A stretch of 24,000 nucleotides of DNA from Candidatus Heimdallarchaeota archaeon. GTDB taxonomy: Archaea > Asgardarchaeota > Heimdallarchaeia > Heimdallarchaeales > Kariarchaeaceae. Where the stretch lies: contig WAKA01000148.1 of the NCBI GenBank assembly GCA_015523565.1, positions 1 through 24,000 on the forward strand, in the 5' to 3' direction. Below are positions 798 through 17,215 of this stretch, piece by piece. Under the pieces are notes generated by a model. It saw nothing but the letters and a program-made list of their open reading frames with translations. It searched no databases and was not told the origin of the DNA. Each line of letters starts with the position of its first letter. The first letter of the stretch is position 1. The translations under genes and the position numbers were made by a program.

Positions 798-1184
798 TTA
801 TCCGAGAATTTCCGCGATTTTCTTTGCTGCAATATCCATTTCATGGAAGATAAGCCCTAGTTTTGCATCCTTGCTTGTTGAAACAGTCAAGACAGCATTT
901 GACCCGGCAGACACTGAAATGACATGACCATCCTTACCCTCTACAAATATTTTCTGAAGTAATCCCCGATTTAGGTTATTGCTGATCTTTTCGCCAAGAG
1001 ACAGCATTGCGGCCGTCATTGCGGCGACAATGGCATCTTCATATTCAGGAGGCATTCGTGAGGCAATTGGTAGACCTTCAATTGAAACTATTGCAGCAGC
1101 CTCAATTTCTTTTACATTTACATCAATCTCTCGAAGGATTTCATCCAAATCTTTTGCTTTATCGTCAAATGAGAAGTCGAACAT
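798..1184 (-). CDS. Roadblock/LC7 (MglB-like) domain protein
   Basis: 128-aa ORF with an ATG start. AAAIVSIEGLPIASRMP...AAMTAAMLSLGEKI...GHVISVSAGSNAVLTVSTSKDAKLGLIFHEM fits the Roadblock/LC7 alpha-beta-alpha pattern. The antisense ORFs 979-1233 and 1007-1201 are treated as shadows. Confidence 0.85.
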   Translation of the reverse strand: MFDFSFDDKAKDLDEILREIDVNVKEIEAAAIVSIEGLPIASRMPPEYEDAIVAAMTAAMLSLGEKISNNLNRGLLQKIFVEGKDGHVISVSAGSNAVLTVSTSKDAKLGLIFHEMDIAAKKIAEILG

Positions 1185-1316
1185 GGTCAGATCCCCAGTA
1201 ATTCATTTAGAAACTGTTTCTAATGGATATTAATCATTCTTTAATAAAAACATATTGGAAAGCAATTGGTTTTTGTTCAATGATTTATGATACTATAGTT
1301 CGCATGGGAAAATCGA

Positions 1317-1353
1317 TTATATAAAGGCGCACAATGTTGGGATTTATTAAATT
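1317..1353 (+). promoter_or_regulatory. Candidate archaeal promoter region for the GPN GTPase gene (two TATA-like boxes)
   Basis: TTATATAAA lies at 1317-1325 and TTTATTAAAT at about 1343-1352, which is 47 nt and about 20 nt upstream of the ATG at 1372. It sits in the divergent intergenic region shared with the Roadblock gene. Confidence 0.35.
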
Positions 1354-1371
1354 TGTTCAAAAACTCCACGT

Positions 1372-2133
1372 ATGAACATCGGATATTTTCTGGGACCGGC
1401 TGGTTCTGGAAAGTCTCATGCAACTGCTGCGCTTTATGATTGGATGAACAGGGTAGAATTGGACGTTATCACGGTCAATTTAGACCCCGCTGTGATTAGG
1501 TTGCCCTATGCACCCGCAATAGACATAAGGCAATATGTTGATTATGAGGATATTGTGGATAGGTTTGAGCTGGGACCAAATGGGGCAATCATCGCCGCCA
1601 TGGACCAAGTTGCCTTGAATATTGACGAGGTGATTGAGGAACTGAAAAATTATGGGGCAGATTATGTCTTGGTTGACCTGCCGGGACAGATGGAAGCATT
1701 TGCTTTCAGGGGAAGTGGTCCCCTTATAATCTCAAGCCTGGCACAGGACAATATTGCGGCAGGGGCATTTTTGATAGACCCAATATTGTGCAACACAGCC
1801 TCAAGCTTCATTTCAATTTTGCTCTTTGGGGTTTCAATAAGTTATAGGCTTCACACAGGCATGGCATTTGTCATCTCAAAGGGGGACTTACTGAAGGAAA
1901 ACCGATTGATACGCATGCAGGAATGGGTGGAAAATCCAGAATTTCTCATGGAGGACTTGAGATTGGAAAAAAACATCCTTAACGCGGACCTTTCCCAAAG
2001 GATTGCACAATTGGTCATTGAAAACGAACACCTCAGTGAATTCCCTGTAATCTCGTCAGAAACCCATCAGAACATAGACTTGGCGTTTGCAGAATTTCAG
2101 AGGATTTGGAATTCCGAAGACATGTTTAGTTAA
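1372..2133 (+). CDS. GPN-loop GTPase (Npa3/XAB1/PAB0955 family)
   Basis: Walker A GPAGSGKS, the eponymous GPN loop in FELGPNGA, DLPGQME (switch II/Walker B) and SKGDLL in the NKxD position. 253 aa, the typical size for the family. Confidence 0.9.
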   Translation: MNIGYFLGPAGSGKSHATAALYDWMNRVELDVITVNLDPAVIRLPYAPAIDIRQYVDYEDIVDRFELGPNGAIIAAMDQVALNIDEVIEELKNYGADYVLVDLPGQMEAFAFRGSGPLIISSLAQDNIAAGAFLIDPILCNTASSFISILLFGVSISYRLHTGMAFVISKGDLLKENRLIRMQEWVENPEFLMEDLRLEKNILNADLSQRIAQLVIENEHLSEFPVISSETHQNIDLAFAEFQRIWNSEDMFS

Positions 2134-2194
2134 TGAAAAAATCCTTGTATTTAATCGATGAGTATTTTATAGGAGAAAAACACTAGGGGAATCA

Positions 2195-2971
2195 GTGAAA
2201 GAGAGGTTCTCGCCCTATAACCTTATTTACGCAATCTACAAGCGGAATCTGAAAAGGAAAGTCAAGGCAGGAACTATCCCAAAACATGTAGGGCTTATTC
2301 TGGACGGCAATAGAAGAGGGGCAACCACTTTGGGGATTTCCAAGGAACGCGGATACAAGATGGGGGCACAAAAACTTGAGGAGGTCCTGAATTGGGCCTG
2401 GGATTTGGGAATCAAAGCAATTTCCGTCTGGATATTCTCTACAGAAAACTTCCAAAGGTCAGATGATGAGAAGTCGGTCATTTTTAAACTTGCCAAGGAA
2501 AACGCCATCAAGATAAGGAATGATGAAAGGGTACATGAAAAGAAAATACAGGTGCGGTTTTCAGGAGAAATATCAATGCTTCCCGAAAGCCTCCAAGAGG
2601 AATTTCGGAAGACGGAAGAGGCGACAAAAGATTACAACGACTACATATTGAACATTTGTGTCGCATACGGCGGCAGAAAAGAGATTGTGCATGCCGTAAA
2701 GAAAATTGCCAAACATGTCAAGGATGGGAAACTCGATATTGATTCCATCAATGAGGAAATGATTGCCATGTATCTCTATACCACAGGCCTTCCCGACCCT
2801 GACCTGATAATAAGAACCTCTGGGGAGATACGGCTTTCAGGCTTCCTTCTCTGGCAGGGAGTCTATTCGGAACTTTATTTCACAGATGTCTACTGGCCAT
2901 TGTTCCGTGAAATTGACTTTTTGCGGGCAATTAGGTCATACCAGTTGAGACAAAGAAGATTTGGAAAATAA
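2195..2971 (+). CDS. uppS: cis-prenyltransferase: tritrans,polycis-undecaprenyl-diphosphate synthase
   Basis: HVGLILDGNRRGA, VWIFSTENFQR, NICVAYGGR, IIRTSGEIRLSGFLLWQ and the C-terminal RRFG are classical UppS motifs. The start is GTG at 2195, with no earlier in-frame ATG. Confidence 0.9.
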   Translation: MKERFSPYNLIYAIYKRNLKRKVKAGTIPKHVGLILDGNRRGATTLGISKERGYKMGAQKLEEVLNWAWDLGIKAISVWIFSTENFQRSDDEKSVIFKLAKENAIKIRNDERVHEKKIQVRFSGEISMLPESLQEEFRKTEEATKDYNDYILNICVAYGGRKEIVHAVKKIAKHVKDGKLDIDSINEEMIAMYLYTTGLPDPDLIIRTSGEIRLSGFLLWQGVYSELYFTDVYWPLFREIDFLRAIRSYQLRQRRFGK

Positions 2972-2981
2972 AGGGAAAACA

Positions 2982-3434
2982 CTATTTGGTACGACCAATA
3001 CGGAATTTGAGGATGGATTGCCTTTTATATGTCTCAAGAATGTAGTCATGGCTTTCTGGAAGCTCACGCTTCTTCAACAGGGAGTTGCGAACCAATGGCT
3101 CTGAAACATACACCACCATTCGATCAAGATATGGAAGTTGGGAAAAAAGATCAGGAACCAAGTCTTCATTGGGTACAACCAGTTTCATGCCAATAATATG
3201 CCCAAATGAATCACCAGGTTGCAGAACAGTCAATGAGATGACATCATCAATGACAGAATACCGGTCAACACCCACGTGATCAACCAATGCGGGTTTCGAA
3301 AGATAGAGATTAACGCCAGACAATCTTAGCTCGATTGCCAATTCCTCAAGCACATTCAGCTCAGATGGAGAAATCAATCGATCCAGGGAAACATTTGAAG
3401 CCCGGCGCAAACGTCTCAGACGTTTATAATACAT
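2982..3434 (-). CDS. Hypothetical protein (150 aa), no recognisable motif
   Basis: ATG start with a TATA box 25-32 nt upstream. Convergent with uppS across an 10-nt gap. Basic N-terminus (MYYKRLRRLRRA). The antisense ORF 3085-3279 is treated as a shadow. Confidence 0.6.
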   Translation of the reverse strand: MYYKRLRRLRRASNVSLDRLISPSELNVLEELAIELRLSGVNLYLSKPALVDHVGVDRYSVIDDVISLTVLQPGDSFGHIIGMKLVVPNEDLVPDLFSQLPYLDRMVVYVSEPLVRNSLLKKRELPESHDYILETYKRQSILKFRIGRTK

Positions 3435-3505: not shown

Positions 3506-4315
3506 TTTTCAAAAAATAAGCAAGATCATGGAAGGAACCAGCCCCACGCCAAACGAGCACCAAAGGTGGTGAAGAACATGGAAAAGAGGTACCGAGACAA
3601 TCTGATTTCCCAAGCAAAAGAAGCCTCCCAAACCTTGCCTTCGAAAAGGTCGTTTTCCTTAAGTGGAGGGATAAAACGGAAATGCCTGCTCTATATGATC
3701 TCCCCCCATCGAGAAGAAGACATTCAGATCACGGGAAAAATCCCATTGAATAAACCAGTGAAAGACAATTTATTCAGATCAGGATTGTATACCGATGAAG
3801 CCATTAAAGGACTAAAATCGATCCCGATCGAACAAATCATATGACTCCCCAAAAAGATACTATGAAGCCTTCCCTCTATGGCTTGAAGCAAGATTGAGAA
3901 GAATACTCCATACATTGACTCTCAATCAAAATCCCCTGATACATAATTTTGAAGCTTGGAAAAAATAATATTCAGCTCAGGAAAACTGACCGATGTAATT
4001 AGTACAAGAAGAATTTGGGAACTCGCCAAAAAATACCTCGCAATAGGTTCAAGATTACAGATGACCAAATTCGGCAAACAAATCATCTCCAAGCCATACA
4101 AACCGTTCAGATATCTGACAATGCCAACCCCCATTTTCCTTGATCACAAGATATTCCAAAATGGCAACTTCATCAAAATGCTCAAAAAAATATTCCCAAA
4201 TAAACCAATCCCCAAAAATCTTGAAAAAATACCCTCCAGAAAAAAATCTATCTTGATATCCTTGAAACCGCACATCAATCGCGCAACAAACCCTTCCCAA
4301 AAAAGACATAGATAA
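3506..4315 (+). pseudogene. 5'-truncated, frameshifted fragment of a paralogue of the 1149-aa gene (equivalent to about its last 270 residues)
   Basis: Reading frames 2, 0, 2 in turn gives collinear similarity to residues ~885-1149 of the large ORF. RYYEAFPLWLEARLRRILHTLTLNQNPLIHNFEAWKK (3855-3965) matches HYYQKIHYWIEAQLRRILNRLTLDKDLFEQNLDKWCK. RIWELAKKYL..KPFRYLTMPTPIFLDHKIF matches HILEIAKRYL..RPFRSGAYLTPIFLDPKLF. Frame breaks fall at about 3816-3843 and in the A-run at 3959-3965. Confidence 0.75.
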
Positions 4316-4355
4316 TTTCTTCAACTCTGTGAAAAACGTGGCTGAATTCCTAAAT
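4067..4355. repeat. Left arm of a long inverted repeat (partner 8843-9127); perfect core 4255-4355
   Basis: By manual alignment, the reverse complement of 4255-4355 is identical (101/101) to 8843-8943. Outward, the match continues with substitutions and small indels to about 4067 and 9127. Confidence 0.9.
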
Positions 4356-4431: not shown

Positions 4432-4531
4432 TGATCCGGGAGGGATTCGAACCCACGATCACGTGCAATTTGGATGTTATCCAATTTGACCATCCCCAAG
4501 CACGCATGTTACCAAGCTACACTACCGGATC
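4432..4531 (-). tRNA. tRNA-Pro (anticodon GGG) with a 26-nt intron at the canonical 37/38 position; no encoded CCA
   Basis: Hand-folded. Acceptor GATCCGG/CCGGATC plus discriminator A. D arm GTGT-AGCTTGGTA-ACAT. Anticodon stem CGTGC/GCACG with loop TTGGGG..T. T arm GTGGG-TTCGAAT-CCCTC (one U-U mismatch). The intron at 4468-4493 contains the hairpin TTGGAT-AAC-ATCCAA. The mature length would be 74 nt. Confidence 0.85.
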
Positions 4532-4541
4532 TACTATTTGT

Positions 4542-4557
4542 TGTGGAATTTTCCACA
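4542..4557. repeat. Perfect 16-nt palindrome TGTGGAATTTTCCACA, 11 nt upstream of the tRNA 5' end
   Basis: Read directly from the sequence. It lies between an A/T-rich TATA-like stretch (4561-4573) and the mature tRNA 5' end. It could be an operator or a leader hairpin; the function is unknown. Confidence 0.6.
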
Positions 4558-4889
4558 TTTGATAATTAGATAATTTTCTTTTAATGTTTTTTCATGGTTA
4601 CGTGTTAGATTTTTTGATTCTTTTTAATTCTTTATTTCAGTGGGTTTCTGTTAAAATATTGATGGATTGTTTTGGTTTTCTTTTTTTCCTTTATGAATTT
4701 TTTTGGATACTTTGGATGTTTGGATTGTTAATTGAATTTTAGATAACGTTTTTGTCAGAGTTAGAGCAGCAACAGATGGTTTTATGGGGTTTCCGTCATG
4801 TGATTTTCGATAATTCATATTTTCTTGTTTTCTATCATCAGATTGAGGATCACATTTGGCATTGTTAAATTTTCATCAAAGGGTTATGA

Positions 4890-4931
4890 GGAGAGAGATG
4901 GATTGATTTATCGGGAGAGAGATGGATTGAT
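4890..4931. repeat. Two exact 18-nt direct repeats GGAGAGAGATGGATTGAT (4890-4907 and 4914-4931; period 24 nt)
   Basis: Read directly from the sequence. They lie immediately 3' of the stop codon (4935-4937) of the 1149-aa ORF. Confidence 0.85.
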
Positions 4932-4934
4932 AAT

Positions 4935-7900
4935 TCATATCCTTGCAAACAGGATTTTGAGTTTTCCGATTTCAGTTTTGAAATTTTGGATAATATTGAA
5001 GAAATGGTTGTTTTTGTGTGGCAAATTCATTTTAAGAATTGCATTGATGTCGGCTTCAAATGTTTTTCTGTAATCAAGGACAGGTTCAGGTTTATTATCA
5101 ACAATTATATTTATATCGAATCGTTGTATGATTTTCCGATACTGTTTTTTGTTTTCTGCAAACAGTTTTGGATCAAGGAAAATTGGGGTCAGGTAAGCCC
5201 CAGATCGGAATGGTCTGTCACCGAGCGTTCTTTTTATTAGGACCTTTTCTGCATTTTCGTCATAAGCCAAAGTGTGACCTGGGACAAGATATCGTTTAGC
5301 AATTTCGAGGATATGTTTTTTACCAAAAATGGTTTCGAAAGTCACATCAGTATTTCCTAGTTTTAGTTTGCACCATTTATCCAAATTCTGTTCGAACAGG
5401 TCTTTATCCAACGTCAATCGGTTCAAAATTCTGCGGAGCTGTGCTTCGATCCAATAATGGATTTTTTGGTAATAATGTTCTTTATTTTTAAATATCAAGA
5501 GATTTTCCCGTCCCGTTTTTGTTCCAAGATGTTTTGTTCCTAAAAATTCAGGGTCTATAGTGTCTGGATTTTGTGGAAAATGTCCAGGGAGCATTCTTAG
5601 GTCGAGAATTGTAAACACATTTCCTACAGGTTCGTTATTTGTTTTTGGATCAAACCATACGAAAACATTTTTCAAGTGGAGACAATTCATTTTAAATTTA
5701 ATCTTTACCAAGTTATCGGTAATTCCAGAGGCTACTTGTTTAAGTTCTTCAATCATAGACAATTCGAAAGGTTTTCCATGTTTTTTAGTGAAATCCATGA
5801 TTGTTTCTTGGTGGAAATAATTCATGAGTTCGTTGAAATATGTTGCAAGAAAGCTTATTAGTCTGCCATTTTTCATCAAATGTTTAAGAAAACTTTCAGC
5901 CCGTTCGATGTTAAGTTTTTTGTTCACCATCAGTGAATAATCATTCAATGTTCCTGTGGGGGGTCTGAAATGCAAATAGGTAAGTTTTTGTTTTTCATGG
6001 AAAGCTTCCACTATTTCAATCAACGGGACGGGGGGTTCTACAGCAGAGTATATTTCGGCGGTCAATCCTCCCAAAGGGCTGGGCAAATGACTATTGGAAA
6101 ATGATCGATGTCCAATTGGCAATTTTCCAAACCATAGCAAGACAATATCGGTTTCCTCTTCAGCGATAGCTTTTTTGTTAATTCTCCATCCTTTCAAGTA
6201 ATTGGATATTTTCTCTTCAGGAATCAGGAATTTAAGAAGGGATGATGGAGATTGTATGTATTTGACAGGGGCGTGGTGGTTTTCATAATGTATTCCAGCG
6301 GTCACACGAGTTGTGGTGACATAATTGTCGACTTCCACGTAGACCATGGTTTCTCCGTTTTGATTTGGTTTTGTTAAAATTATTGGATTTTTACTTTTTG
6401 TGTTGACCCTTTCGATTATTTTCATAAACAGATGTGGATCAATACCTCTCGTATTCCACTTCAGACCAAATTCAGAAACATCAAAAGAGCGATAATGATT
6501 GAAGGTTATTGGAAAATCCCCTCTCAATTTACCCAACAGATTTTCAACTTCCGAAGCAGTGGTTCCTGCATATGAGAGAATGTTTACTTCAGGCATCCAT
6601 CTGCCCAAGATGAAATTCGATTGGTGTCCTTGGTTCACAGTTGAAAAGACCAGATTGTACACTTGCTCCTGAAATCTTCTGAATTGATCCAGATCGTCTG
6701 TTTGAAGAGGAGCTCTTGAAAAAAGAGAAATGTCGTCAATTTCAATGGAAAACATGTCGAGATCATCGAAGTACCTGACAATGCCGTTCCGATCGATGAA
6801 TTTTGTGATACCAAAGCGATGAACTATTCCTTTTGGAGTATTGATTGTTTGTGGTGCAAAGAAGGTGTCTTTGTCAATGATACCGATATAAAGGGTCCCG
6901 TTTGCATCCCTCAAAGGGATTTGTATAATGTCCGATAGGTTTGATATGATGTCCCCGACAGAGGTGGAAACTAAGTTGTCTTGTTTTTTTATGATTAAGA
7001 GGTTATTTTCCATTGCATCTTTTATAGTATTGATTGAGCTAAACCCGATGCCAAGGTCTTTTGGTTCAGGCCACCTCCCACTTCTCATGAATTCAATCAT
7101 CTGATGTTGTGCAATGGAATTCTCCATCTTCTGGACGTATCCTTTGATTATGCAGTGAACAATCTGTTTCTGGTTCTCTGAAAGTTGTGAGAATTTCAGC
7201 TCACCGAAGCTCCTTTTTGCGATTGCCAACTTGAATTCATTTGTTGCAAGAGAAACTGCATTGGAAGAGCGTAACCCTTCTGAATCGACATAAAACAATT
7301 GGTCAATTCCCAGTGCACAGGTCAATTTTATCCAATCCCGTTTCAAGCGGTCGATTCGATCGAATCCGACACCACCAATAAACAAGCGTTTATCCTCTAT
7401 TGACCTAATCAAAGCAGGGTAGTCTTCAATCTTTCCAAGCACTAGTTTGGTATTTTCATTTCCTTTCAGTGTAATCCTGTTTGCATCGGTTATGAATGTT
7501 CTTCGATCCAAATTATCTGAAAGGTTTATTTTATACTCTTCAATGGTGTTCATAAAAGTCTTATCCTGTATTTGCTCAATCAGGAAGTTGGTGGTTCTTG
7601 TCAGGTCATCGGTTCCTTCAATTGGAGTGCTTGGGATAATCAATGTCAGCCTGTCTGTACCAGATGACACCCCATTTGCATCTAGGGTATGGCGTTTGAT
7701 GTGATCAATTGCATTTTTCAGGGCTTCATCAACGAGATCGACTGAAGTGCATGAAACAGGGATGTTCCTTTCCTTTATCTTATTGATGACTTGCTTTTTC
7801 TTTGCATCCGAGAGTTTGAACACTGTACCATTCAACACATTGTCTTCATTGGTGGAGCTGTTGAGGATCAGGCTTGCAGGGAAGATATCATTGTCCAACA

Positions 7901-8384
7901 GCCTGTTTACGAGGAAATAATAACTCAATTCTTTTTCAAGCATGTGAAGAATGAATTTTTCAGCCCTTTCGCCTTGATTGAAGAAAATTTCGGATCCTTT
8001 GATGAAGTTGGCGTTCGGATCCTTGATTACGTCAGTAATGGAATTGTATTTTGAGATCTCCCCAACATTCTTATTTGACTTGATAAACTCATAGTATTCG
8101 CCAAGAAGGTTTTTGTCCTTTGTTTCAAAATAGGTTTGCACCTTTTTGTCCTTTATGAACTGCGACTTTGTCTTGGTATGGTGGAAATAGTACATGAGAT
8201 TGACCTTTCGCAAGAAGATCTCGTTCAGTGAGATTTCCTTGATGGAATTAAGGTAATTCATGTCATAAAGCTTGGTCAGGTTGTTCTTCAACTCTTCATT
8301 CATTGGGATAGGTTCTGAAAGTTTGTGGGAAGCACAGCTCATGCATGAAAAGTGGAAGACCGGATACTGGTTACTGTCCGTCAA
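4935..8384 (-). CDS. Large protein of unknown function (1149 aa)
   Basis: This is the longest uninterrupted ORF in the window. Decayed paralogue fragments on both sides show it belongs to a real gene family. The annotated start is TTG at 8384, with the first in-frame ATGs at 8342 and 8303. I recognised no P-loop, helicase, HNH, Zn-finger pair, HExxH, recombinase or transposase signature. Confidence 0.8.
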   Translation of the reverse strand: MTDSNQYPVFHFSCMSCASHKLSEPIPMNEELKNNLTKLYDMNYLNSIKEISLNEIFLRKVNLMYYFHHTKTKSQFIKDKKVQTYFETKDKNLLGEYYEFIKSNKNVGEISKYNSITDVIKDPNANFIKGSEIFFNQGERAEKFILHMLEKELSYYFLVNRLLDNDIFPASLILNSSTNEDNVLNGTVFKLSDAKKKQVINKIKERNIPVSCTSVDLVDEALKNAIDHIKRHTLDANGVSSGTDRLTLIIPSTPIEGTDDLTRTTNFLIEQIQDKTFMNTIEEYKINLSDNLDRRTFITDANRITLKGNENTKLVLGKIEDYPALIRSIEDKRLFIGGVGFDRIDRLKRDWIKLTCALGIDQLFYVDSEGLRSSNAVSLATNEFKLAIAKRSFGELKFSQLSENQKQIVHCIIKGYVQKMENSIAQHQMIEFMRSGRWPEPKDLGIGFSSINTIKDAMENNLLIIKKQDNLVSTSVGDIISNLSDIIQIPLRDANGTLYIGIIDKDTFFAPQTINTPKGIVHRFGITKFIDRNGIVRYFDDLDMFSIEIDDISLFSRAPLQTDDLDQFRRFQEQVYNLVFSTVNQGHQSNFILGRWMPEVNILSYAGTTASEVENLLGKLRGDFPITFNHYRSFDVSEFGLKWNTRGIDPHLFMKIIERVNTKSKNPIILTKPNQNGETMVYVEVDNYVTTTRVTAGIHYENHHAPVKYIQSPSSLLKFLIPEEKISNYLKGWRINKKAIAEEETDIVLLWFGKLPIGHRSFSNSHLPSPLGGLTAEIYSAVEPPVPLIEIVEAFHEKQKLTYLHFRPPTGTLNDYSLMVNKKLNIERAESFLKHLMKNGRLISFLATYFNELMNYFHQETIMDFTKKHGKPFELSMIEELKQVASGITDNLVKIKFKMNCLHLKNVFVWFDPKTNNEPVGNVFTILDLRMLPGHFPQNPDTIDPEFLGTKHLGTKTGRENLLIFKNKEHYYQKIHYWIEAQLRRILNRLTLDKDLFEQNLDKWCKLKLGNTDVTFETIFGKKHILEIAKRYLVPGHTLAYDENAEKVLIKRTLGDRPFRSGAYLTPIFLDPKLFAENKKQYRKIIQRFDINIIVDNKPEPVLDYRKTFEADINAILKMNLPHKNNHFFNIIQNFKTEIGKLKILFARI

Positions 8385-8842
8385 ATTGAACTCACCAAGT
8401 GTAGGCCGGATGCTGAATGGCTTGCAAACCTATTGTTTTCAACAAATTGCACATCAACATACCTCTTCTCCTTGTTCTTGAAGAATACGCCGTATCCGTT
8501 AGGTTCTGCGGTAACTGTATGTTCCCTCCACGGATTTCTTGACACACAGGCGAACAAACTTGACGATTGTCTTGTTTTCAGTCGCTGAAACCTAGCGGGT
8601 TCAGACAGCTTGGCGAGACCATTTCGCCGTTAATCGGAACCTATCCTTTGTGACTATTTCCCATGATGGTTCTGAAGTGTCTATGATCCTTTCAGGTTTC
8701 ACAACTATAAGTCTTGGTAAACCGAAATGGAACGGATTCCTATCTCAACATAATTTGAATACAAAAAACGACCCATTTGTTCATCCATTCAGGGATGGTG
8801 ACTAATTCACAAGTCCAAATGGGTTCTAGATTTTATGGAAAC

Positions 8843-9127
8843 ATTTAGGAATTCAGCCACGTTTTTCACAGAGTTGAAGAAATTATCTATGTCTTTTTTG
8901 GGAAGGGTTTGTTGCGCGATTGATGTGCGGTTTCAAGGATATCGAGATAGATTTTTTTCTGGAGGAGTATTTTTTCGGGGTTTTTGGGAATTGGGTAATT
9001 TGGGAAGATTTTTTTGAACATCTTGATGAAGTTTCCATTTTGGAATATTTGTTCATAGATAATTGGGGTTAGCATTGTAAGATACCTGAATGGTACTTGG
9101 ATTGGAGACGATTTGTTTGCCGAATTT
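8843..9127. repeat. Right arm of the long inverted repeat (partner 4067-4355); perfect core 8843-8943
   Basis: See the left arm. After the core there is one mismatch (8944), then 21 matches, then a 1-nt indel. Identity over the outer part is about 80% by eye. Confidence 0.9.
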
Positions 9128-9200
9128 TATCTTCAGGTTTGTTGGCAAGGAGGTGGCATAATTAGTGGGCATTTGACTTGGTTTCACTGATGAAGGTCAG
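8887..9200 (-). pseudogene. Second 5'-truncated, frameshifted paralogue fragment of the 1149-aa gene (C-terminal part only)
   Basis: Minus-strand translation gives ..KFGKQIVSNP.. then, after a frameshift, MLTPIIYEQIFQNGNFIKMFKKIFPNYPIPKNPEKI... This parallels the left fragment (KFGKQIISKPYKPFRYLTMPTPIFLDHKIFQNGNFIKMLKKIFPNKPIPKNLEKI). A further 1-nt indel changes the last ~25 codons. The upstream limit is uncertain; weak similarity may reach about 9290. Confidence 0.65.
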
Positions 9201-9376: not shown

Positions 9377-9877
9377 TTAGTCATTGCGATGCGCATTTTC
9401 CCATTTGTCGATGGGGGTGAACAGGATGCATGGCATTGGGGTATGTTTTTTGGTCAGGACGGCGGGGAGTGACATGACCTCACAGCCAGTATACCTTTTG
9501 TAGCTGGATATCAGCAGGGTAATTCCGACATAGGTTGTTGATCCCACAAAAAGTTCGAGGTTCTGCAAGAAATATCCCAAAGCCATGAAAGCACCGACAA
9601 TGCCATTTGCGAGGGTTGCCGCGGCATATTTGTTGGGCTGGATTTTTTTGGACTCAATCAGTTTGTGGAGGACAAGATATATGAGGGTGATGAGGATGAA
9701 AACGGAGAGGGAGAGGATGAGGGACATCAACAGGTTCGGTTTGTTGCTCACAATGAATACCCTGATGGCAAGTGCAAGGAAGAGAATGCCAAGGATGGTT
9801 CTTGTGGTCATTCCGATTGGTCCTGTCTTGGAGGGTTGGATGTTTTCTGTTTCACTTGTGTCTGTAAGTTCTGCCAT
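9377..9877 (-). CDS. Integral membrane protein (about 4 TM helices) with a C-terminal Cys-containing tail
   Basis: 166 aa with an ATG start. Four hydrophobic segments (ILGILFLALAIRVFIV, LLMSLILSLSVFILITLIYLVL, GIVGAFMALGYFL, YVGITLLISSY), then YTGCEVMSLP...PCILFTPIDKWE. The antisense ORFs 9585-9968 and 9665-10006 are treated as shadows. Confidence 0.65.
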   Translation of the reverse strand: MAELTDTSETENIQPSKTGPIGMTTRTILGILFLALAIRVFIVSNKPNLLMSLILSLSVFILITLIYLVLHKLIESKKIQPNKYAAATLANGIVGAFMALGYFLQNLELFVGSTTYVGITLLISSYKRYTGCEVMSLPAVLTKKHTPMPCILFTPIDKWENAHRND

Positions 9878-10062: not shown

Positions 10063-10686
10063 TTGTCAGAGTACCTGAACGTATTGATGGGGTTGGTCAA
10101 TCGCAAACCCCGTATTGGCATAGTCATCGATCTTAACGTATTGGATGTTGGTCGTGAAACCCGTCTGGACGTTTTGGGTGCATTGCGAGACAGGTTCAAT
10201 GAGTTGGGGCAGGTACGGCAGGCCTTGGTCATATCTCCGCGGCAGTTGAAACGTGATGAGCTGGAAGAGGTTCAGAGGGCGGGGTTCTCATTGAAAGTTG
10301 TGCCCAAGGCGCATTCGGAATTGAGTTTTTTGCTGGAGACATATGATTTGGCATTGAACGGGCAGATAAACGTGATTGTGATCGGCTCAGCAGATGAGCA
10401 ACTGACACCGTTGTTTTTGGCATGCAGGAACATACTGAATGAAACGATTGGGTTTTTTTTGGGAAAGGTGGGGGAGAAAGTCTTGCGTTCATTCAATGCG
10501 GTTGTGACACCAGAGACATTGGAGACATTTACTTTGTTTGAGGCAAGTGAGCCTGAATATGAGGCGGTGCGCAATTTTGTGGTTCAAAGCATCCAGACGG
10601 AGAACGGCAAGGAAACCCAAGAGATGGAGCCTGAAAATGTTGAGGCAGATTTGTTCGGTCCCATATCAGAGAATTTGGAAGATTAG
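10063..10686 (+). CDS. Hypothetical protein, possibly a NYN/LabA-like (PIN-fold) domain with partly substituted acidic residues and an acidic C-terminal tail
   Basis: RIGIVIDLNVLD resembles the first NYN strand (D-x-N). NVIVIGSADEQLTPLF resembles the S-G-D-S-D-F-x-P-L strand, but the second Asp is replaced by Gln. Start is TTG at 10063 or ATG at 10087. The gene is noticeably GC-richer than its neighbours. Confidence 0.55.
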   Translation: MSEYLNVLMGLVNRKPRIGIVIDLNVLDVGRETRLDVLGALRDRFNELGQVRQALVISPRQLKRDELEEVQRAGFSLKVVPKAHSELSFLLETYDLALNGQINVIVIGSADEQLTPLFLACRNILNETIGFFLGKVGEKVLRSFNAVVTPETLETFTLFEASEPEYEAVRNFVVQSIQTENGKETQEMEPENVEADLFGPISENLED

Positions 10687-10748: not shown

Positions 10749-12359
10749 TCAGCCAATAGAGATCCATGCCGCGCTGATTCGCTGAGATTTGATTTCATAG
10801 TAACATGTGAAGTTTCCTTCTTGGCTCGTTATTTTTTGTAAAATGAGATTTTTAAGTGCAATTGTTGACTTTATTGAAAGATTGGTCAGTTTTGGGATGG
10901 TATCTCTGAGTTGTTTTCTGGTTTGATCCTGACCTTGGAAAAGCATTTTATTTGATGTAAGATCATAGACGATTATTTTTGGGTGGACAAATTCCATTGC
11001 ACGGTCAATTTCTTTTTTGATGAGGCATGAAATGAATTTTTCAACAAGTTCAATGGGGTGGAAAGGGGAGATGAGAAATTCAGGGGAAAAGACATTGCCT
11101 TTGGAGATGACCAATTCAATTGATGTGGTTGCAGTTATATCGTTGAGTGGATTTCTTCTAAGGAGAACCAAGTCTGCAAATGCCCCTTTTTTGATTTCAC
11201 CTATCAATTTGTTTCCGAAAACTTTTGCTGCGTTGTAAGTTGTTGCCTGCAAGACGTCTTCCGGACTCATGCCTGCAATGTTCATGATTCTCATTTCCTC
11301 ATGGATTGAAACACCATGCAATGTGCCGATATTGCCTGCGTCAGTTCCTGTTGCAATGGTTATACCATTTTCATGCAATTTTTTGAGATTGTGCATTGCA
11401 TTTGAGACAAGGGGTGAAAAGTCGTCATTTTCTTTGTTTTCATCTAGAGGAAGTGCTTGGATTGAGAACAGGTCAAACCATGAAGAGATTGCACGAGGGC
11501 ATCCCCATTTTTCTTCAAACATAGAGGTGTTTTTTGTACCTGCAAATACGTCACGATAGCCCTGTCTTACTTGAAGTGTTGGAATACAGATGGCATTTTT
11601 TGCCAAGTCAATGAATTCTTGGTCTATATGTTGGTCAAAGACCCCGTGAACCAAGATGTCTGCCCCTTGTTTAAGGGCTTCTTTTGCAGTTTTTAGCTCT
11701 GTGGCATGCACTGCGGCACGATACCCAAGTGCATGGCTTTCATTTATTGCCGCGGCAATGATCTTACAATCATTTTCGAAGTGCTGGGGACGATAGATAA
11801 ACCATATTTTAATGAAGACAGGGTTATGTTCAGCACATTTTCTTACAAGTTCCTTTGCATGCTCTTCAGATTGTGCTTGGATTATGGGGGGGTCACCAAG
11901 ATCCAATTTTTCTCTTGAGACAGTTGAGACCAGCGGACCTGTAACTTGGACATGTGGGGAATGGGAATTTCCTGCAAGTTCCCTGACTTCAAAATTCCAG
12001 AATGGCCCACCGCAATCGACAACGGCAGTGACACCAGACACAAGATATCTCTTGAAGGTATCTGGGAGGCTTTTTTTGATGTTATTGATTTCTTCAGAAT
12101 AGGGGACATGGTTTGTCAAGTCGAGTATGTCAGGTCTTGTATAGAGACCAGAGCTTTGGAAGAAGTGAATATGTGCATCGATGAGACCGGGGATTGCAAA
12201 CAGGTTGGAACAGTCAATAGTTATATCATTCTCTTCAGGCTCAGGTTCAATATTGTAATATATCTCTTTGATTAGTTCACCTTCAATTTTGATGGCTGAG
12301 GAATGGCACATTTTTTTCTGTTTGGAATCAAAGAAGGTGACATTGGTCAGAATGACCAT
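10749..12359 (-). CDS. Metal-dependent amidohydrolase-superfamily protein with a C-terminal ~110-aa extension
   Basis: PGLIDAHIHF (HxH metal site), AAVHATE, ILVHGV, ATGTDAG, GAFADLVLL (the typical C-terminal beta-sandwich return). The extension ELVEKFISCLIKKEIDRAMEFVHPKIIVYDL... looks NTF2/SnoaL-like. Confidence 0.85.
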   Translation of the reverse strand: MVILTNVTFFDSKQKKMCHSSAIKIEGELIKEIYYNIEPEPEENDITIDCSNLFAIPGLIDAHIHFFQSSGLYTRPDILDLTNHVPYSEEINNIKKSLPDTFKRYLVSGVTAVVDCGGPFWNFEVRELAGNSHSPHVQVTGPLVSTVSREKLDLGDPPIIQAQSEEHAKELVRKCAEHNPVFIKIWFIYRPQHFENDCKIIAAAINESHALGYRAAVHATELKTAKEALKQGADILVHGVFDQHIDQEFIDLAKNAICIPTLQVRQGYRDVFAGTKNTSMFEEKWGCPRAISSWFDLFSIQALPLDENKENDDFSPLVSNAMHNLKKLHENGITIATGTDAGNIGTLHGVSIHEEMRIMNIAGMSPEDVLQATTYNAAKVFGNKLIGEIKKGAFADLVLLRRNPLNDITATTSIELVISKGNVFSPEFLISPFHPIELVEKFISCLIKKEIDRAMEFVHPKIIVYDLTSNKMLFQGQDQTRKQLRDTIPKLTNLSIKSTIALKNLILQKITSQEGNFTCYYEIKSQRISAAWISIG

Positions 12360-15343: not shown

Positions 15344-16597
15344 TCAGGAAGAAGCACTGTTTTTTACAAATTCAGGGATTGGAGGAAGAGATTTGGTCAA
15401 TGTATGGCCTGTGTTTTGTTTGAGGCGTTCGGTAAGCTTTTCCACCTCGCCGATTATTTTTTCCGCTTCTCTCAGTTCTCTTTCTATTATTCGTTTCATA
15501 TCCCTTTTAATGCCCTCCAGCTTGTTCTGGAGTTTGTCTATCTTGCCTTGCAGGTCAAGATCCTTAAGTTCAGTGGCGATATTTTCTCTTTTTTGTTTTA
15601 GCTCCCTGCTTTGTTTCCAAATGGATTCAAGTTCTCCATCAATTAAGGAATTAAGATGCTTAATAGCGCTTTCTTTCTTGTCTCGTTTCATTTCTATTTC
15701 ATTACTTTCCAATAGCCTGAGAATATCTGAAAAGAGACTCTTCAGCCCATTTACGGAAGATTGGTTTGCAAATGCGGTGGCGGCATCGGTTACAATTTCT
15801 TTGGCAAGGGTCACGTCTATTTTTTTCTTGCTTTTGCTTGATTTGTTGATGAATTTTCGAAGGGCCTTCCTGATTTCTGAAAGGGAATTGTCAAGGTTCT
15901 TTTGCAAGTTTGAAAATGCGGCGTCGACTTCCTTTTTTTCAGAAAGCAATGGGGAATTTTTGAGTTCCATGATCTGGGAGGACACAGTCTCTGCCTCTTC
16001 ATTAAGCTTGGCAAGTCCTTCCTGTTGCATTTCAAGGTCTTCCAGAAGTTGAAGGTATCGTTTTTCAAGTTCAAGAATGTCGTCAAGTATCCAAAGCCCT
16101 TCCTCAATTGAAGCTTTGGTATTATATTTATTGATCAGGAATTTCCTAGTTTCATCAATATCTTTCAGAACACGAAGATACGCTTTGTTTAAGCTTTTAA
16201 CACGTTTTGCATATTTCCTGTCCAATAATTTGATATATTTGCTGAAGACATTTTTTTCCAGTGTCTCCAATTCTTTTTGGACACTGTCGATAAACCTATT
16301 GACTGATTGGAGGGTAATGTTTTGTGGAGTTTGGAGCAAATCAACAGTTTCAGCCACACCCTCGTAGATTTTATGGCTATATTTTTCAATTGCACTTGTC
16401 TCATTTGAGTCTGGGTTGGCAACTCGGAATTCTTCTGCAATTATTTTCATATCAGATAGATGTTTTTCAATATTTTTGAGAAATTTGTCCTTAACCTTTT
16501 TTCTTTCCTTGGAAAGGACAGTATCTGCTTCTTTTTCGATTTTTGCACGTAGTTCATCAATTTCTTCCTTTAATTCCGAGTTCGCCATTATTTGCAA
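15344..16597 (-). CDS. Long coiled-coil protein (K/E/L-rich, ~415 aa), unknown function
   Basis: Heptad-like K/E/L-rich sequence throughout (ELRAKIEKEADTVL..., LELEKRYLQLLEDLEMQQEGLAKLNEEAE..., KDLDLQGKIDKLQNKLEGIKRDMKRIIERELREAEKIIGEVEKLTERL). Start is TTG at 16597 or, more likely, ATG at 16588. It lies 48 nt downstream of the GTPase gene on the same strand. Confidence 0.8.
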   Translation of the reverse strand: MQIMANSELKEEIDELRAKIEKEADTVLSKERKKVKDKFLKNIEKHLSDMKIIAEEFRVANPDSNETSAIEKYSHKIYEGVAETVDLLQTPQNITLQSVNRFIDSVQKELETLEKNVFSKYIKLLDRKYAKRVKSLNKAYLRVLKDIDETRKFLINKYNTKASIEEGLWILDDILELEKRYLQLLEDLEMQQEGLAKLNEEAETVSSQIMELKNSPLLSEKKEVDAAFSNLQKNLDNSLSEIRKALRKFINKSSKSKKKIDVTLAKEIVTDAATAFANQSSVNGLKSLFSDILRLLESNEIEMKRDKKESAIKHLNSLIDGELESIWKQSRELKQKRENIATELKDLDLQGKIDKLQNKLEGIKRDMKRIIERELREAEKIIGEVEKLTERLKQNTGHTLTKSLPPIPEFVKNSASS

Positions 16598-16645: not shown

Positions 16646-17215
16646 CTATAGCTTGTTATACATGGTTCGCATGATTATTTCACGTGAAACTGCCTGAAAA
16701 GCTTGTTTGACCCCAACCCCCTTAATGGCAATTGTGTTGATGGCCAAAGTCTGTGGGTCAAAACCGAGTGCCTTGAGAAGTTCTTCACGGGGCATGGCAT
16801 TCGGCAAGTCACGTTTGTTCAGGACAATGACAAGAGGGATTTCAGTACCCAACTTCTCGCCCATGAATTCTCTAAGTTCCTCTGCCGCTTCAACATTGTG
16901 TTCAAGCATGTCAGGATTTGAATCTGCCACGAATACAATTCCGTCTACACCCCGAAGAATCATTTTCCTTTGATCCCTGTGTCTTCTTTGACCAGCCACG
17001 GTATATACATCGAAAAGGACATTGTTTGTCGCAGAAAAAGGTGAGAAATCAAAATAGACAGTACGTCCTGAAGGATCTGCAATTGAGGTCAGTCCACCCT
17101 TGATAAGCCCGTCAACTTGGTCATGAAGGTACTTCAACAGGGTTGTTTTCCCCGCCAGACTTGATCCAGTAAACACAATTTTAAAGTGAATTCGTCCCTT
17201 GGCATCCTTACGCAT
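16646..17215 (-). CDS. Small Ras-superfamily GTPase, MglA/Arf-like
   Basis: G1 GSSLAGKTT; G3 YTVAGQ (Thr in place of the usual Asp, as in MglA TVPGQ); G4 NKRD; G5-like AIKGVGV. A GGAGTG SD-like site lies 7 nt upstream of the ATG. Confidence 0.88.
   Translation of the reverse strand: MRKDAKGRIHFKIVFTGSSLAGKTTLLKYLHDQVDGLIKGGLTSIADPSGRTVYFDFSPFSATNNVLFDVYTVAGQRRHRDQRKMILRGVDGIVFVADSNPDMLEHNVEAAEELREFMGEKLGTEIPLVIVLNKRDLPNAMPREELLKALGFDPQTLAINTIAIKGVGVKQAFQAVSREIIMRTMYNKL

What the first reader, a model, noticed from the sequence alone, without database searches (positions are those of the whole stretch)
4935..8384. Orphan 1149-aa protein: the best candidate for an undescribed function
This is a 3.45-kb uninterrupted ORF belonging to a multi-copy family, as shown by the two decayed paralogue fragments flanking it. 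I find no Walker A/B, DExD/H, HNH, paired CxxC zinc fingers (only 7 Cys in total), HExxH, tyrosine-recombinase or DDE-type pattern, TM helix or coiled coil. There are only weak hints. (i) Residues ~496-548 read GTLYIGIIDKDTFF, then about 30 aa, then GIVRYFDDLDMFSIE. That is a hydrophobic strand ending in Asp (D504), followed ~36 aa later by a hydrophobic Y-x-D-D hairpin (D540/D541). This is the generic signature of palm-type nucleotidyltransferases. It resembles RT motifs A/C in wording, but the spacing is more like a minimal palm of the cyclase/GGDEF/Cas10 type. (ii) The C-terminal FEADINAILKMN superficially resembles a RuvC-III D-x-N-A-A-x-N motif. Neither hint is enough for a call. Its location next to a tRNA gene, inside an inverted-repeat-bounded segment within an accessory region, fits an element-borne or defence-type gene.
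Basis: partly seen in the sequence, partly recalled or inferred. Interest (0 to 1): 0.78.

Follow-up and report, generated by a model that had tools for sequence, protein, structure and literature searches.

The report
Orphan gene always beside tRNA genes
A large protein gene found only in a few Heimdall-type Asgard archaea matches no known protein, sits beside a different tRNA gene in every genome examined, is younger than its neighbours and leaves broken copies, so it is probably a new kind of selfish mobile gene.

Summary
The uninterrupted 1149-codon ORF (4935-8384, minus strand), the adjacent tRNA, two decayed paralogue pieces and the ~300-nt inverted repeat they form are all real.

The two functional hints fail. 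D504, D540/D541 and FEADINAILKMN are not conserved in the family. The "palm" stretch is predicted all-beta.

The protein is a true orphan:
- An exhaustive HMM search of 1.84 billion representative proteins finds 13 relatives.
- Pfam, NCBIfam, PHROGs, PADLOC and PDB give no credible match by sequence or profile.
- Foldseek of a medium-quality AF2 model gives nothing.

The new evidence comes from context:
- All five independent loci have a tRNA gene within 500 nt, and each has a different tRNA. Pro, Glu, Val and Trp lie 88-403 nt downstream on the same strand. Met lies upstream and divergent.
- In two genome pairs, synonymous sites of the family gene are far less diverged than those of flanking host genes (omega ~0.2).
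- Close relatives show absence, opposite orientation and 5' truncation at the same locus.
- One assembly holds at least two copies.

Best reading (confidence ~0.4): a single-gene selfish element aimed at tRNA-gene flanks, resembling Heimdallarchaeal aloposons in behaviour only. Its chemistry is unknown.

The parts
4935..8384 (-). Intact family gene 'A', 1149 codons from TTG (the databases annotate 1122 or 1135 aa from ATG 8303 or 8342). It is the only ORF of the unit.
   Evidence: Omega is about 0.2 against the copy in L016.
7332..7367 (-). Invariant motif G-R-x-D-x-L-x-R-D-W (residues 340-351 of the 1149-aa form; 313-324 of the 1122-aa form).
   Evidence: Invariant in 8 full-length homologues of 28-59% identity.
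7071..7130 (-). Invariant motif K-x-x-N-x-x-A-Q-H-Q-x-I-E-x-M-R-S-G-R-W (residues 419-438 of 1149; 392-411 of 1122). This is the most conserved block of the family.
   Evidence: It falls partly in a low-confidence loop of the model.
6588..6632 (-). Motif Q-G-H-x-S-N-...-G-x-W-M-P-E (residues 585-599 of 1149), with invariant G, H, N, G, P and E.
6741..6899 (-). The acidic residues are not conserved, and the stretch is predicted as an all-beta subdomain.
4432..4531 (-). tRNA-Pro(GGG) with a 26-nt anticodon-loop intron. Its 5' end lies 403 nt downstream of the stop codon of gene A, on the same strand.
4532..4934 (-). A-rich 403-nt spacer between gene A and the tRNA. It contains a 2 x 24-nt tandem repeat (4884-4931) just after the stop codon, and a short hairpin (TGTGG-N6-CCACA) just upstream of the tRNA.
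8385..8842 (-). ORF-free 458-nt region upstream of gene A. Its outer end is the sharp end of the right repeat arm. No conserved or known RNA was found here.
   Evidence: Fold z-score is -1.8.
3695..4315 (+). Pseudogene 'B-left', a copy of a second subfamily with an internal deletion. The first 49 codons, including the start Met (3695-3841), are joined to the C-terminal ~180 codons (profile positions 945 to ~1092), with a frameshift near 3960.
   Evidence: A related fragment occurs in another sample (P0021/L009).
8843..9134 (-). Pseudogene 'B-right', a 5'-truncated copy of the same subfamily (profile positions ~1030-1092). It has the same 3' boundary as B-left.
4060..4355 (.). Left arm of the inverted repeat. 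Its partner is 8843-9134. The arms are 83-88% identical overall, and the inner ~110 nt are 100% identical. They bracket gene A plus the tRNA.
2982..3434 (-). Last host gene (150 aa, unknown function) that is syntenic with close relatives. Synteny with L010 and L016 ends just to its right.

Best explanation
The ORF is the single gene of a small selfish element, about 3.5-4.3 kb long and restricted to Heimdall-related Asgard archaea. The element settles in the immediate flank of tRNA genes, usually about 90-400 nt upstream of the tRNA and reading towards it. It moves between lineages, and older copies are left to decay.

**Shown**
- The family is tiny and has no known relatives.
- It is under purifying selection.
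- Every locus examined is next to a tRNA gene, and the tRNA is different each time.
- Copies are younger than the host genes around them.
- Closely related genomes differ in presence, orientation and completeness of the copy at the same spot.
- Decayed copies of another subfamily sit on both sides of the same tRNA.

**Inferred**
- Because no other gene travels with it, the protein itself probably recognises the tRNA-gene flank and carries out insertion, as a nucleic-acid enzyme of an unrecognised fold. Candidate active-site residues, in 1122-aa numbering, are D318, D323, H400, E404, H560 and E572, together with many invariant Arg and Lys.
- Being upstream of the tRNA may also give the transcript a 3' end through tRNA processing.
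- The two B-type remnants, being inverted repeats, have allowed the segment holding gene A and the tRNA to flip.

The chemistry of movement is not known. It could work through DNA or RNA, and by cut-and-paste, copying or homing.
For: **Orphan status**
- Only 13 hits in 1.84e9 representative proteins, and 5-6 clusters in the 5.8e9 set.
- No credible match in Pfam, PADLOC, PHROGs, NCBIfam or PDB sequences and profiles.
- No Foldseek match in PDB or BFVD.
- No match in plasmids, phages or IMG/VR.

**tRNA adjacency at all five independent loci**

| Locus | tRNA | Position |
|---|---|---|
| window | Pro(GGG) | 403 nt downstream, same strand |
| L003 | Glu(UUC) | 151 nt downstream, same strand |
| L002 / L004 | Val(GAC) | 107 / 98 nt downstream, same strand |
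| L001 | Trp(CCA), two introns | 88 nt downstream, same strand |
| L007 / L008 | Met(CAT) | ~500 nt upstream, divergent |

The rough chance probability is about 1e-9.

**Younger than the host**
- Window versus L016: identity at four-fold degenerate sites is 0.60 for the family gene and 0.24-0.35 for four flanking host genes (random is about 0.27). Fisher p = 4e-6.
- L002 versus L004: 0.54-0.65 for the family gene and 0.365 for FAU-1. Fisher p = 6e-7.
- Omega is about 0.2.

**Polymorphism at the same host locus**
- L010 has the same Roadblock-GPN-UPPS-orf150 synteny but no family copy and no tRNA.
- L016 has a 5'-truncated copy of gene A, starting at profile position 590, in the opposite orientation.
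- L011 and L013 have no copy.

**Decay products**
- B-left (internal deletion) and B-right (5'-truncated) share a 3' boundary.
- The L002 copy is frameshifted.

**Single-gene unit**
- In L004 the gene alone fills the gap between FAU-1 and tRNA-Val.
- At least two divergent copies occur in one assembly.

**Precedent**
Against: - No catalytic fold or motif of any known transposase, integrase or reverse transcriptase was found.
- There are no terminal inverted repeats at the ORF flanks, no target-site duplication and no partial tRNA copy.
- No clean filled-versus-empty pair with both junctions could be obtained, because the contigs end too soon.
- In L002 and L004 the gene is at the same place in both genomes, so it is not hypermobile.
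- Low synonymous divergence could in principle reflect constraint on the RNA rather than youth.
- All the genomes are MAGs or short contigs, so copy numbers and some junctions could be affected by assembly.
Confidence: 0.4

Rival explanations
1. The gene is accessory cargo, for example an unrecognised defence or conflict gene. It sits in tRNA-linked variable hot spots and is moved in trans, by other elements' recombinases or by homologous recombination anchored on conserved tRNA genes. On this view the protein has nothing to do with its own movement.
For: - tRNA genes are general hot spots. In L002 and L004 the 3' side of tRNA-Val is also variable.
- Patchy distribution, young age and truncated remnants fit defence islands as well as mobile elements.
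- No transposase-like motif was found.
Against: - PADLOC gives no match.
- No integrase or partner gene is seen next to it at any locus.
- The gene lies on the 5' side of the tRNA, not the 3' side where classical islands integrate.
- It is hard to explain why one family would be placed next to five different tRNAs, four times in the same orientation and at a similar distance, if the placement were not specified by the unit itself.
Confidence: 0.25
2. The gene is an ordinary lineage-specific cellular gene family with several old paralogues. Its position upstream of tRNA genes is functional, for example through co-transcription with 3'-end formation by RNase P, or because the protein acts on tRNA. 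The fragments and the inverted repeat are then by-products of local duplication and rearrangement.
For: - Purifying selection, with omega about 0.2.
- Stable position in L002 and L004.
- The neighbours are housekeeping genes.
- Each subfamily seen so far has its own tRNA.
Against: - Synonymous divergence is much lower than in flanking genes in two independent genome pairs. The control gene orf150 evolves fast yet is saturated at synonymous sites.
- Close relatives lack the gene or carry it truncated at the syntenic site.
- Pseudogenised copies exist.
- The family is absent from a related 1.13-Mb contig neighbourhood and from nearly all Asgard data.
Confidence: 0.2
3. This is the first reader's reading: a minimal palm-type nucleotidyltransferase (RT, cyclase, GGDEF or Cas10-like) using D504 and D540/D541, and/or a RuvC-like nuclease using the C-terminal D-x-N-A motif.
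For: The strings are present in this one sequence. Nothing else supports this reading.
Against: - None of the proposed residues is conserved among eight homologues.
- The region is predicted as all-beta, without the helix of a beta-alpha-beta-beta palm.
- There are no Pfam, PDB or Foldseek matches to any polymerase, cyclase or RNase H-like family.
Confidence: 0.03

Closest known systems
Aloposons of Ca. Heimdallarchaeum (Wu et al. 2022, Nat Microbiol; PMC8813620)
   Same: - The host group is also Heimdall-type Asgard archaea.
- They are transposon-like units without a known transposase.
- Different copies lie at different tRNA genes, with the tRNA downstream of the large gene or genes.
- Truncated fragments of the large genes occur elsewhere in the genome.
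   Different: - Aloposons carry two tandem genes of 3,000-6,000 aa plus four upstream genes, including a MinD/ParA-like ATPase. Here there is a single 1,149-aa gene and no partners.
- No sequence similarity to anything outside the 13-member family was detected.
- A direct profile comparison with Otus and Ephialtes could not be run.
Eukaryotic retrotransposons targeted to tRNA-gene flanks (yeast Ty1/Ty3, Dictyostelium TRE5/TRE3) and site-specific single-ORF non-LTR elements such as R2. The comparison rests on my own knowledge.
   Same: - Insertion in the flank of many different tRNA genes rather than inside them.
- No terminal inverted repeats.
- A single ORF of about 1,100 aa (R2).
- Truncated dead copies that share the 3' end.
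   Different: - No reverse-transcriptase, endonuclease or integrase domain is detectable.
- The only invariant aspartates lie in a predicted helix.
- One remnant is an internal deletion rather than a 5' truncation.
- Archaea have no Pol III machinery for such an element to tether to.
Genomic islands and proviruses integrated into tRNA genes by tyrosine recombinases (pNOB8- and SSV-type in archaea). The comparison rests on my own knowledge.
   Same: - Association with tRNA genes.
- Variable presence among relatives.
- The mobility gene lies at the tRNA-proximal end.
   Different: - No integrase domain is present.
- The unit is on the 5' side of an intact tRNA.
- There is no att-type partial tRNA repeat in 24 kb.
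- It is a single gene.
Invertible segments and shufflons bounded by inverted repeats
   Same: - A ~300-nt inverted repeat brackets gene A plus the tRNA.
- The orthologous copy in L016 has the opposite orientation.
   Different: - The repeat arms are dead gene fragments.
- Inversion would not change any coding sequence.
- No invertase gene is present.
- The inversion is most simply explained as a by-product of homologous recombination.

Membership tests
Palm-domain nucleotidyltransferases (RT, GGDEF, cyclase, Cas10) | Invariant catalytic Asp at the end of the motif-A strand, and a D-D (or G-D-D / x-D-D) hairpin in motif C. | tested here: not met
   The D504, D540 and D541 columns vary: D/E/A/T, D/E/P and D/N/E/K.
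Palm-domain nucleotidyltransferases (RT, GGDEF, cyclase, Cas10) | Beta-alpha-beta-beta palm fold, and a profile match. | tested here: not met
   Residues 469-521 (1122-aa numbering) are predicted as six strands with no helix, at pLDDT about 76-85. There are no Pfam, PDB or Foldseek hits. The model is of medium quality only.
RuvC / RNase H-like nucleases (including DDE transposases) | Conserved acidic triad on an RNase H fold, with a conserved motif III. | tested here: not met
   FEADINAILKMN is not conserved. The invariant acidic residues are only D318, D323, E404, E572, E825 and E953, and none lies in a predicted beta-alpha-beta core. There is no profile or fold match.
Aloposons | Different copies lie at different tRNA genes, with the tRNA downstream of the large gene. 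| tested here: met
   Four of five loci have a tRNA 88-403 nt downstream on the same strand, each a different tRNA.
Aloposons | Tandem giant genes (3,000-6,000 aa; Otus and Ephialtes), and four conserved upstream genes including a MinD/ParA ATPase. | tested here: not met
   There is a single 1,075-1,156-aa gene. The neighbours differ at every locus, and none is ParA-like.
Aloposons | Homology of the protein to Otus or Ephialtes. | tested here: inconclusive
   The exhaustive HMM search returned only the 13 family members. No direct profile-profile comparison with the aloposon proteins was possible.
tRNA-integrating elements with tyrosine or serine recombinases | A recombinase catalytic domain, att direct repeats that include part of the tRNA, and an element located 3' of the intact tRNA. 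| tested here: not met
   There is no integrase or resolvase profile hit. There is no partial tRNA copy in the window. The gene lies on the 5' side of the tRNA at all five loci.
Insertion sequences with terminal inverted repeats | Short terminal inverted repeats directly flanking the transposase gene, and target-site duplications. | tested here: not met
   The only inverted repeat near the gene is formed by paralogue fragments lying 460-580 nt away from the ORF ends. No conserved non-coding ends are shared among the loci.
Non-LTR retrotransposons (R2 / TRE type) | A reverse-transcriptase domain. | tested here: not met
   No RVT profile hit for any of 11 members at E <= 5. No fold match.
Non-LTR retrotransposons (R2 / TRE type) | Site-specific insertion, and 5'-truncated copies that share the 3' end. 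| tested here: inconclusive
   B-right and the L016 copy are 5'-truncated, but B-left is an internal deletion. No poly-A or target duplication was seen.
Known anti-phage defence systems (PADLOC) | A match to a defence-system protein model, and conserved partner genes. | tested here: not met
   No PADLOC family at E <= 1. No conserved neighbours.

The most novel reading that the evidence does not exclude
The protein founds a new superfamily of mobility enzymes, unrelated to DDE, HUH, tyrosine or serine recombinase, Cas1 or reverse-transcriptase enzymes. It drives a minimal single-gene element to insert just upstream of tRNA genes in the closest archaeal relatives of eukaryotes. Each subfamily would be tuned to its own tRNA gene. 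This would be an archaeal counterpart of the tRNA-flank 'safe haven' strategy otherwise known from eukaryotic retrotransposons, and possibly the core of what aloposons use.
Probability: 0.25. Interest if true: 0.88.

Novelty: new variant of a known kind. Interest (0 to 1): 0.7.

Why it matters
If this is right, it adds a new self-sufficient mobile element, and probably a new type of DNA- or RNA-handling enzyme, to a group with very few described non-viral mobile elements. As of 2024, aloposons were the only non-viral integrated elements that had been reported from Asgard archaea (PMC11529989).

The element would show that targeting the flanks of tRNA genes is also used in Asgard archaea. That strategy is best known from compact eukaryotic genomes.

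A protein that recognises specific tRNA-gene flanks and inserts 3.5 kb of DNA there would also be of practical interest as a site-specific insertion tool.

Even if the mobility reading is wrong, the strict pairing of one orphan family with five different tRNA genes needs an explanation.

Tried and rejected
**Homology and structure**
- Pfam, PADLOC, PHROGs and NCBIfam scans of the protein gave nothing credible. Pfam and PHROGs were run on all 11 family members; PADLOC and NCBIfam only on the window protein.
- PDB searches by sequence and by profile gave nothing consistent.
- The first AF2 model, from 5 sequences, was poor (pLDDT 47). The second, from 11 sequences, was usable in parts (pLDDT 64).
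- Foldseek against PDB and BFVD gave nothing below E = 0.1.

**Wider sequence collections**
- Searches for relatives in JGI metagenome contigs, IMG/VR, plasmids and phages found none.

**Non-coding RNA and element ends**
- A conserved or known ncRNA in the 458-nt upstream region was considered, as a guide-RNA, retron or group II idea. There is no Rfam hit, no conservation among loci, and a fold z-score of only -1.8, so it was dropped.
- An att-type partial tRNA repeat was sought in the window, and none was found.
- A conserved 3'-terminal sequence shared among loci was sought. Only trivial A-rich 9-mers are shared. Short hairpins just upstream of several of the tRNAs were seen by eye, but were not tested against chance.

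**Motif readings considered by eye and rejected**
- HEPN (R-x4-H at LRxLPGH): the His is replaced by Gln in three of the eight members.
- HUH: there is no H-hydrophobic-H.
- GIY-YIG: the 'YIG' is not conserved.
- Kinase-like HRD/APE: the spacing is wrong.
- A tyrosine-recombinase tetrad: the only invariant Tyr (Y295) lies N-terminal to the basic residues.

**Other**
- Database accessions were searched in the literature, with no hits.
- The empty-site test was only partly successful. Relatives lacking the gene were found, but synteny also breaks there, and the contigs end before the second junction.


Full report
**1. What is in the window**

The ORF at 4935..8384 on the minus strand is real and uninterrupted, 1149 codons from a TTG start.

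- 7 Cys.
- No Walker A, HExxH or DExD motif, and a single CxxC.
- No hydrophobic stretch long enough for a membrane helix.

Databases annotate shorter forms (1122 aa from ATG 8303; 1135 aa from ATG 8342). Homology to relatives continues upstream of both ATGs, so the long ORF call is reasonable.

The surrounding genes identify the organism as an Asgard archaeon:
- An Arf-family GTPase and two Roadblock/LC7 proteins.
- A GPN-loop GTPase.
- RpoD/Rpb3, ribosomal protein S9 and RtcA.
- PPDK and a two-CW protein.

The closest named relatives of its undecaprenyl-diphosphate synthase are Heimdallarchaeota, Heimdallarchaeaceae and Kariarchaeaceae, at 55-59% identity. A related locus also carries an actin gene.

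**2.

*tRNA.* Default ARAGORN found no tRNA. Rfam and ARAGORN with intron search show tRNA-Pro(GGG) with a 26-nt intron at 4432-4531 (minus strand). Its 5' end is 403 nt downstream of the ORF's stop codon, on the same strand.

*Decayed copies.* A profile of the family finds a decayed copy at 3816-4312 (+), with E = 2e-12 and 8e-10 and a frameshift near 3960. It also finds a weak copy at 9126-8890 (-).

*Inverted repeat.* The two copies are 83-88% identical to each other in DNA. They form an inverted repeat, 4060-4355 / 8843-9134. Its inner ~110 nt are identical, and the homology stops abruptly at 4355 and 8843.

*Structure of the left copy.* It also keeps the first 49 codons of a family member, including the start Met (3695-3841; 59% identity to P0020, E = 5e-15). 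It is therefore a copy with an internal deletion, in which profile positions ~50-945 are lost. The right copy is 5'-truncated. Both belong to a subfamily ('B') different from the intact gene ('A'). A related B fragment occurs in another sample (P0021/L009).

**3. The protein is a genuine orphan**

*Family size.* The word-indexed search of 5.8 billion clusters found 5 clusters (40-59% identity). An exhaustive HMM search of 1.84 billion representative proteins found 13 hits. These include three more distant full-length members (P0012, P0015, P0016; 28-43% identity) and several fragments.

*No matches elsewhere.*

| Search | Result |
|---|---|
| Pfam, PHROGs (all 11 members); PADLOC, NCBIfam (window protein) | nothing credible |
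| PDB by sequence or profile | nothing |
| JGI metagenome contigs, IMG/VR, plasmids, phages | nothing |

**4.

Among eight full-length homologues:

| Residue (1149-aa numbering) | Residues in the eight homologues |
|---|---|
| D504 | D D D D E D A T |
| D540 | D D E E P D P P |
| D541 | D D N D N N E K |

The stretch is predicted as six consecutive beta strands without a helix, at pLDDT about 76-85. It is therefore not a beta-alpha-beta-beta palm. FEADINAILKMN lies in the most variable part of the alignment.

The blocks that are invariant are different ones (1122-aa numbering; add 27 for the 1149-aa form):
- G-R-x-D-x-L-x-R-D-W (313-324).
- K-x-x-N-x-x-A-Q-H-Q-x-I-E-x-M-R-S-G-R-W (392-411).
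- R496 / G498 / T500.
- G559-H560-x-x-N563 ... P571-E572.
- P-S-P (741-743).
- E825, K871, K878, R903.
- E953 ... R958 ... Q972-N973 ... W977.

Several of these blocks fall in loops that the model could not place. Many invariant Arg and Lys residues together with a few His, Asp and Glu suggest a nucleic-acid-binding enzyme. This is inference only.

**5. Context gives the real lead: every locus is next to a tRNA gene, and each time a different one**

| Locus (protein) | tRNA | Position relative to the family gene |
|---|---|---|
| window | Pro(GGG) | 403 nt downstream, same strand |
| L003 (P0002, 59% identity) | Glu(UUC), 17-nt intron | 151 nt downstream, same strand |
| L002 / L004 (P0013+P0014 / P0005) | Val(GAC) | 107 / 98 nt downstream, same strand |
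| L001 (P0003) | Trp(CCA) | 88 nt downstream, same strand |
| L007 / L008 (P0015, 28% identity) | Met(CAT) | ~500 nt upstream, divergent |

- The tRNA-Val was missed by the gathering-mode scans but scores 57 bits in E-value mode.
- The tRNA-Trp was missed by both programs because it has two introns: 32 nt in the anticodon loop and 31 nt in the T-loop. It was recognised after removing the T-loop insertion.
- These are the only tRNA genes that ARAGORN (with intron search), backed by Rfam on part of the loci, found in the ~126 kb of non-redundant sequence fetched.
- A rough chance estimate for this pattern is about 1e-9.
- No other gene is conserved next to the family. The neighbours are a periplasmic-binding protein, FAU-1/RNase E-G, a pterin-binding protein and others.
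- In L004 the family gene alone fills the space between FAU-1 and tRNA-Val.

**6. The gene is younger than its surroundings and polymorphic among close relatives**

*Window versus L016.* L016 is from assembly GCA_027054415.1, and its UPPS is 87% identical in protein to the window's.

| Gene | Identity at four-fold degenerate sites |
|---|---|
| Four flanking host genes | 0.24-0.35 (random expectation ~0.27; pS 0.69-0.88) |
| Family gene | 0.60 (pS 0.42, dS 0.61, dN 0.12, omega 0.20) |

Fisher p = 4e-6. One of the host genes, orf150, evolves fast yet is still saturated at synonymous sites. It therefore serves as a control.

*L002 versus L004.* The same contrast appears: 0.365 for FAU-1 against 0.54-0.65 for the family gene (p = 6e-7).

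*The host locus in relatives.*
- L010 (UPPS 88%) has the same Roadblock-GPN-UPPS-orf150 order and then an unrelated gene. It has no family copy and no tRNA.
- L016 shares L010's flank up to ...CTTTTTTTCAAT(A/C)AA. It then runs straight into a copy of gene A that starts at profile position 590 and points the other way from the window's copy.
- L011 (69%) and L013 (77%) have no copy near UPPS.

*Copy number and decay.*
- GCA_027054415.1 thus holds at least two family loci: this truncated A copy, and the intact P0005, which is only 43% identical to A.
- Two samples each hold both an A-like member and P0015.
- The L002 copy carries a frameshift.

**7. Interpretation**

*Favoured reading: a single-gene selfish element that settles in tRNA-gene flanks.* Four lines of evidence point to it:
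- The unit consists of one gene.
- It is attached to five different tRNA genes.
- It has been exchanged or re-inserted more recently than the host lineages split.
- It is accompanied by decayed copies and by presence, orientation and truncation differences among relatives.

*A scenario for the window, as inference.* A B-type copy inserted first near tRNA-Pro. The A-type copy came to lie between it and the tRNA. The two B remnants, being inverted, then allowed the A + tRNA segment to flip, which would explain the opposite orientation in L016. Their 100% identical inner 110 nt would reflect conversion or crossover in that process.

*Role of the protein.* Because nothing else travels with the gene, the protein probably performs target recognition and insertion. 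The chemistry is unknown.

*Known mobility mechanisms.* No known class fits: DDE/RNase H, HUH, tyrosine or serine recombinase, Cas1, or reverse transcriptase. There are also no terminal inverted repeats, target duplications or att repeats.

*Confidence: about 0.4.* Three reasons keep it at this level:
- No clean filled/empty pair with both junctions was obtained.
- All the data are MAGs and short contigs.
- L002 and L004 show the gene can stay put for a long time.

**8. Rivals**

- (a) Cargo or defence gene in tRNA-linked hot spots, moved in trans (0.25). This fits the patchiness and the youth of the gene. It does not explain the consistent 5'-side, same-strand placement at five tRNAs without any integrase nearby, and PADLOC finds nothing.
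- (b) Ordinary cellular paralogues functionally tied to tRNA genes (0.2). This fits omega of about 0.2 and the housekeeping neighbours. It does not fit the synonymous-age contrast, the absences in relatives or the pseudogenes.
This is refuted on conservation and on predicted fold.

**9. Comparison with what is known**

- *Aloposons.* The closest described thing is the aloposon of Ca. Heimdallarchaeum. [quoted passage not shown] The behaviour and the host group match. The defining gene content does not: aloposons have two tandem genes of 3,000-6,000 aa and four upstream genes including MinD/ParA. No homology was detected either.
- *Eukaryotic tRNA-flank retrotransposons and R2-type single-ORF elements.* These are functional analogies without any RT domain here.
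- *Classical tRNA-integrating islands.* These differ in side (3' versus 5'), in integrase content and in att repeats.
- *Novelty call.* I therefore file this as a new variant of a known kind (tRNA-associated Asgard mobile elements), built on a protein family that is itself new.

**10. Verdict**

| Item | Verdict |
|---|---|
| Observation | Confirmed |
| 'Orphan, element-borne' | Supported and strengthened |
| 'Palm / RuvC' | Rejected |

Interest is 0.7. A specialist in mobile elements or Asgard biology would find it surprising that an orphan 1,100-aa protein pairs strictly with five different tRNA genes. The hypothesis is directly testable with closed genomes and simple biochemistry.

Noticed in passing
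L001 4779-4914 (+): tRNA-Trp(CCA) with two introns: 32 nt at the canonical anticodon-loop site, and 31 nt inside the T-loop (about position 59/60). Both ARAGORN (with intron search) and Rfam missed it. ARAGORN recognised it only after the T-loop insertion was removed by hand.
   Followed up: yes
window 4432-4531; L002 13133-13209; L004 5168-5242: Tool sensitivity. Default ARAGORN misses the intron-containing tRNA-Pro. The Rfam gathering-mode scans with fast filters missed a 57-bit tRNA-Val that the E-value mode and ARAGORN both find. tRNA counts in such genomes are easily underestimated.
   Followed up: yes
window 4884-4931: A 2 x 24-nt tandem repeat (TTATGAGGAGAGAGATGGATTGAT / TTATCGGGAGAGAGATGGATTGAT) lies immediately downstream of the stop codon of the large ORF. 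Its purpose is unknown.
   Followed up: no
window ~4548-4563; L001 ~4742-4759; L002 and L004, the last ~30 nt before tRNA-Val: Short hairpins (5-8 bp stems) lie within ~40 nt upstream of several of the adjacent tRNA genes. The sequences differ between L002 and L004, but a hairpin is kept in both. They could be part of the tRNA leader or promoter, an element end, or chance.
   Followed up: partly
L002 ~11580-11690: The family copy in this MAG is split into two ORFs (P0013 and P0014) by a frameshift at profile position ~610. It could be a pseudogene, a sequencing error or a programmed shift. P0013's 90%-identity cluster has 4 member sequences on 2 contigs.
   Followed up: partly
window 8385-8842: A 458-nt ORF-free stretch lies upstream of the large ORF. 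It has no Rfam match and no conservation in other loci, and its fold z-score is -1.8. It may be a long leader or decayed sequence.
   Followed up: partly
window 798-1184, 1372-2133, 16646-17215, 17347-17667: Eukaryote-like small-GTPase modules: a Roadblock/LC7 gene next to a GPN-loop GTPase, and an Arf-family GTPase next to a second Roadblock/LC7 gene. These pairings are typical of Asgard genomes. The first pair is syntenic in L010, L011, L012 and L016; L013 keeps only GPN-UPPS.
   Followed up: no
window 15344-16597 (-), 19323-20336 (-), 9377-9877 (-), 2982-3434 (-): Four further ORFs (417, 337, 166 and 150 aa) have no Pfam or NCBIfam family. The 417-aa ORF has only weak coiled-coil/SMC-like similarity, and the 166-aa ORF looks membrane-bound.
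   Followed up: no
window 10063-10686 (+); L011 10790-11377 (-): A NYN-like nuclease gene (below the Pfam threshold in the window) lies near UPPS in both the window and the more distant relative L011, but in opposite orientations. This hints at further rearrangement of the region.
   Followed up: no
window vs L016, host genes 798-3434: Synonymous differences between these two genomes exceed the random expectation (pS up to 0.88 in UPPS). This suggests different codon preferences in two lineages whose proteins are 87-96% identical.
   Followed up: partly
L010 ~11350-11400: In the relative that lacks the family copy, the sequence at the point where L016's copy begins is a short direct duplication, CTTTTTTTCAATC ... 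ACTTTTTTTCAATC, about 22 nt apart. It could be a footprint or chance in AT-rich DNA.
   Followed up: no
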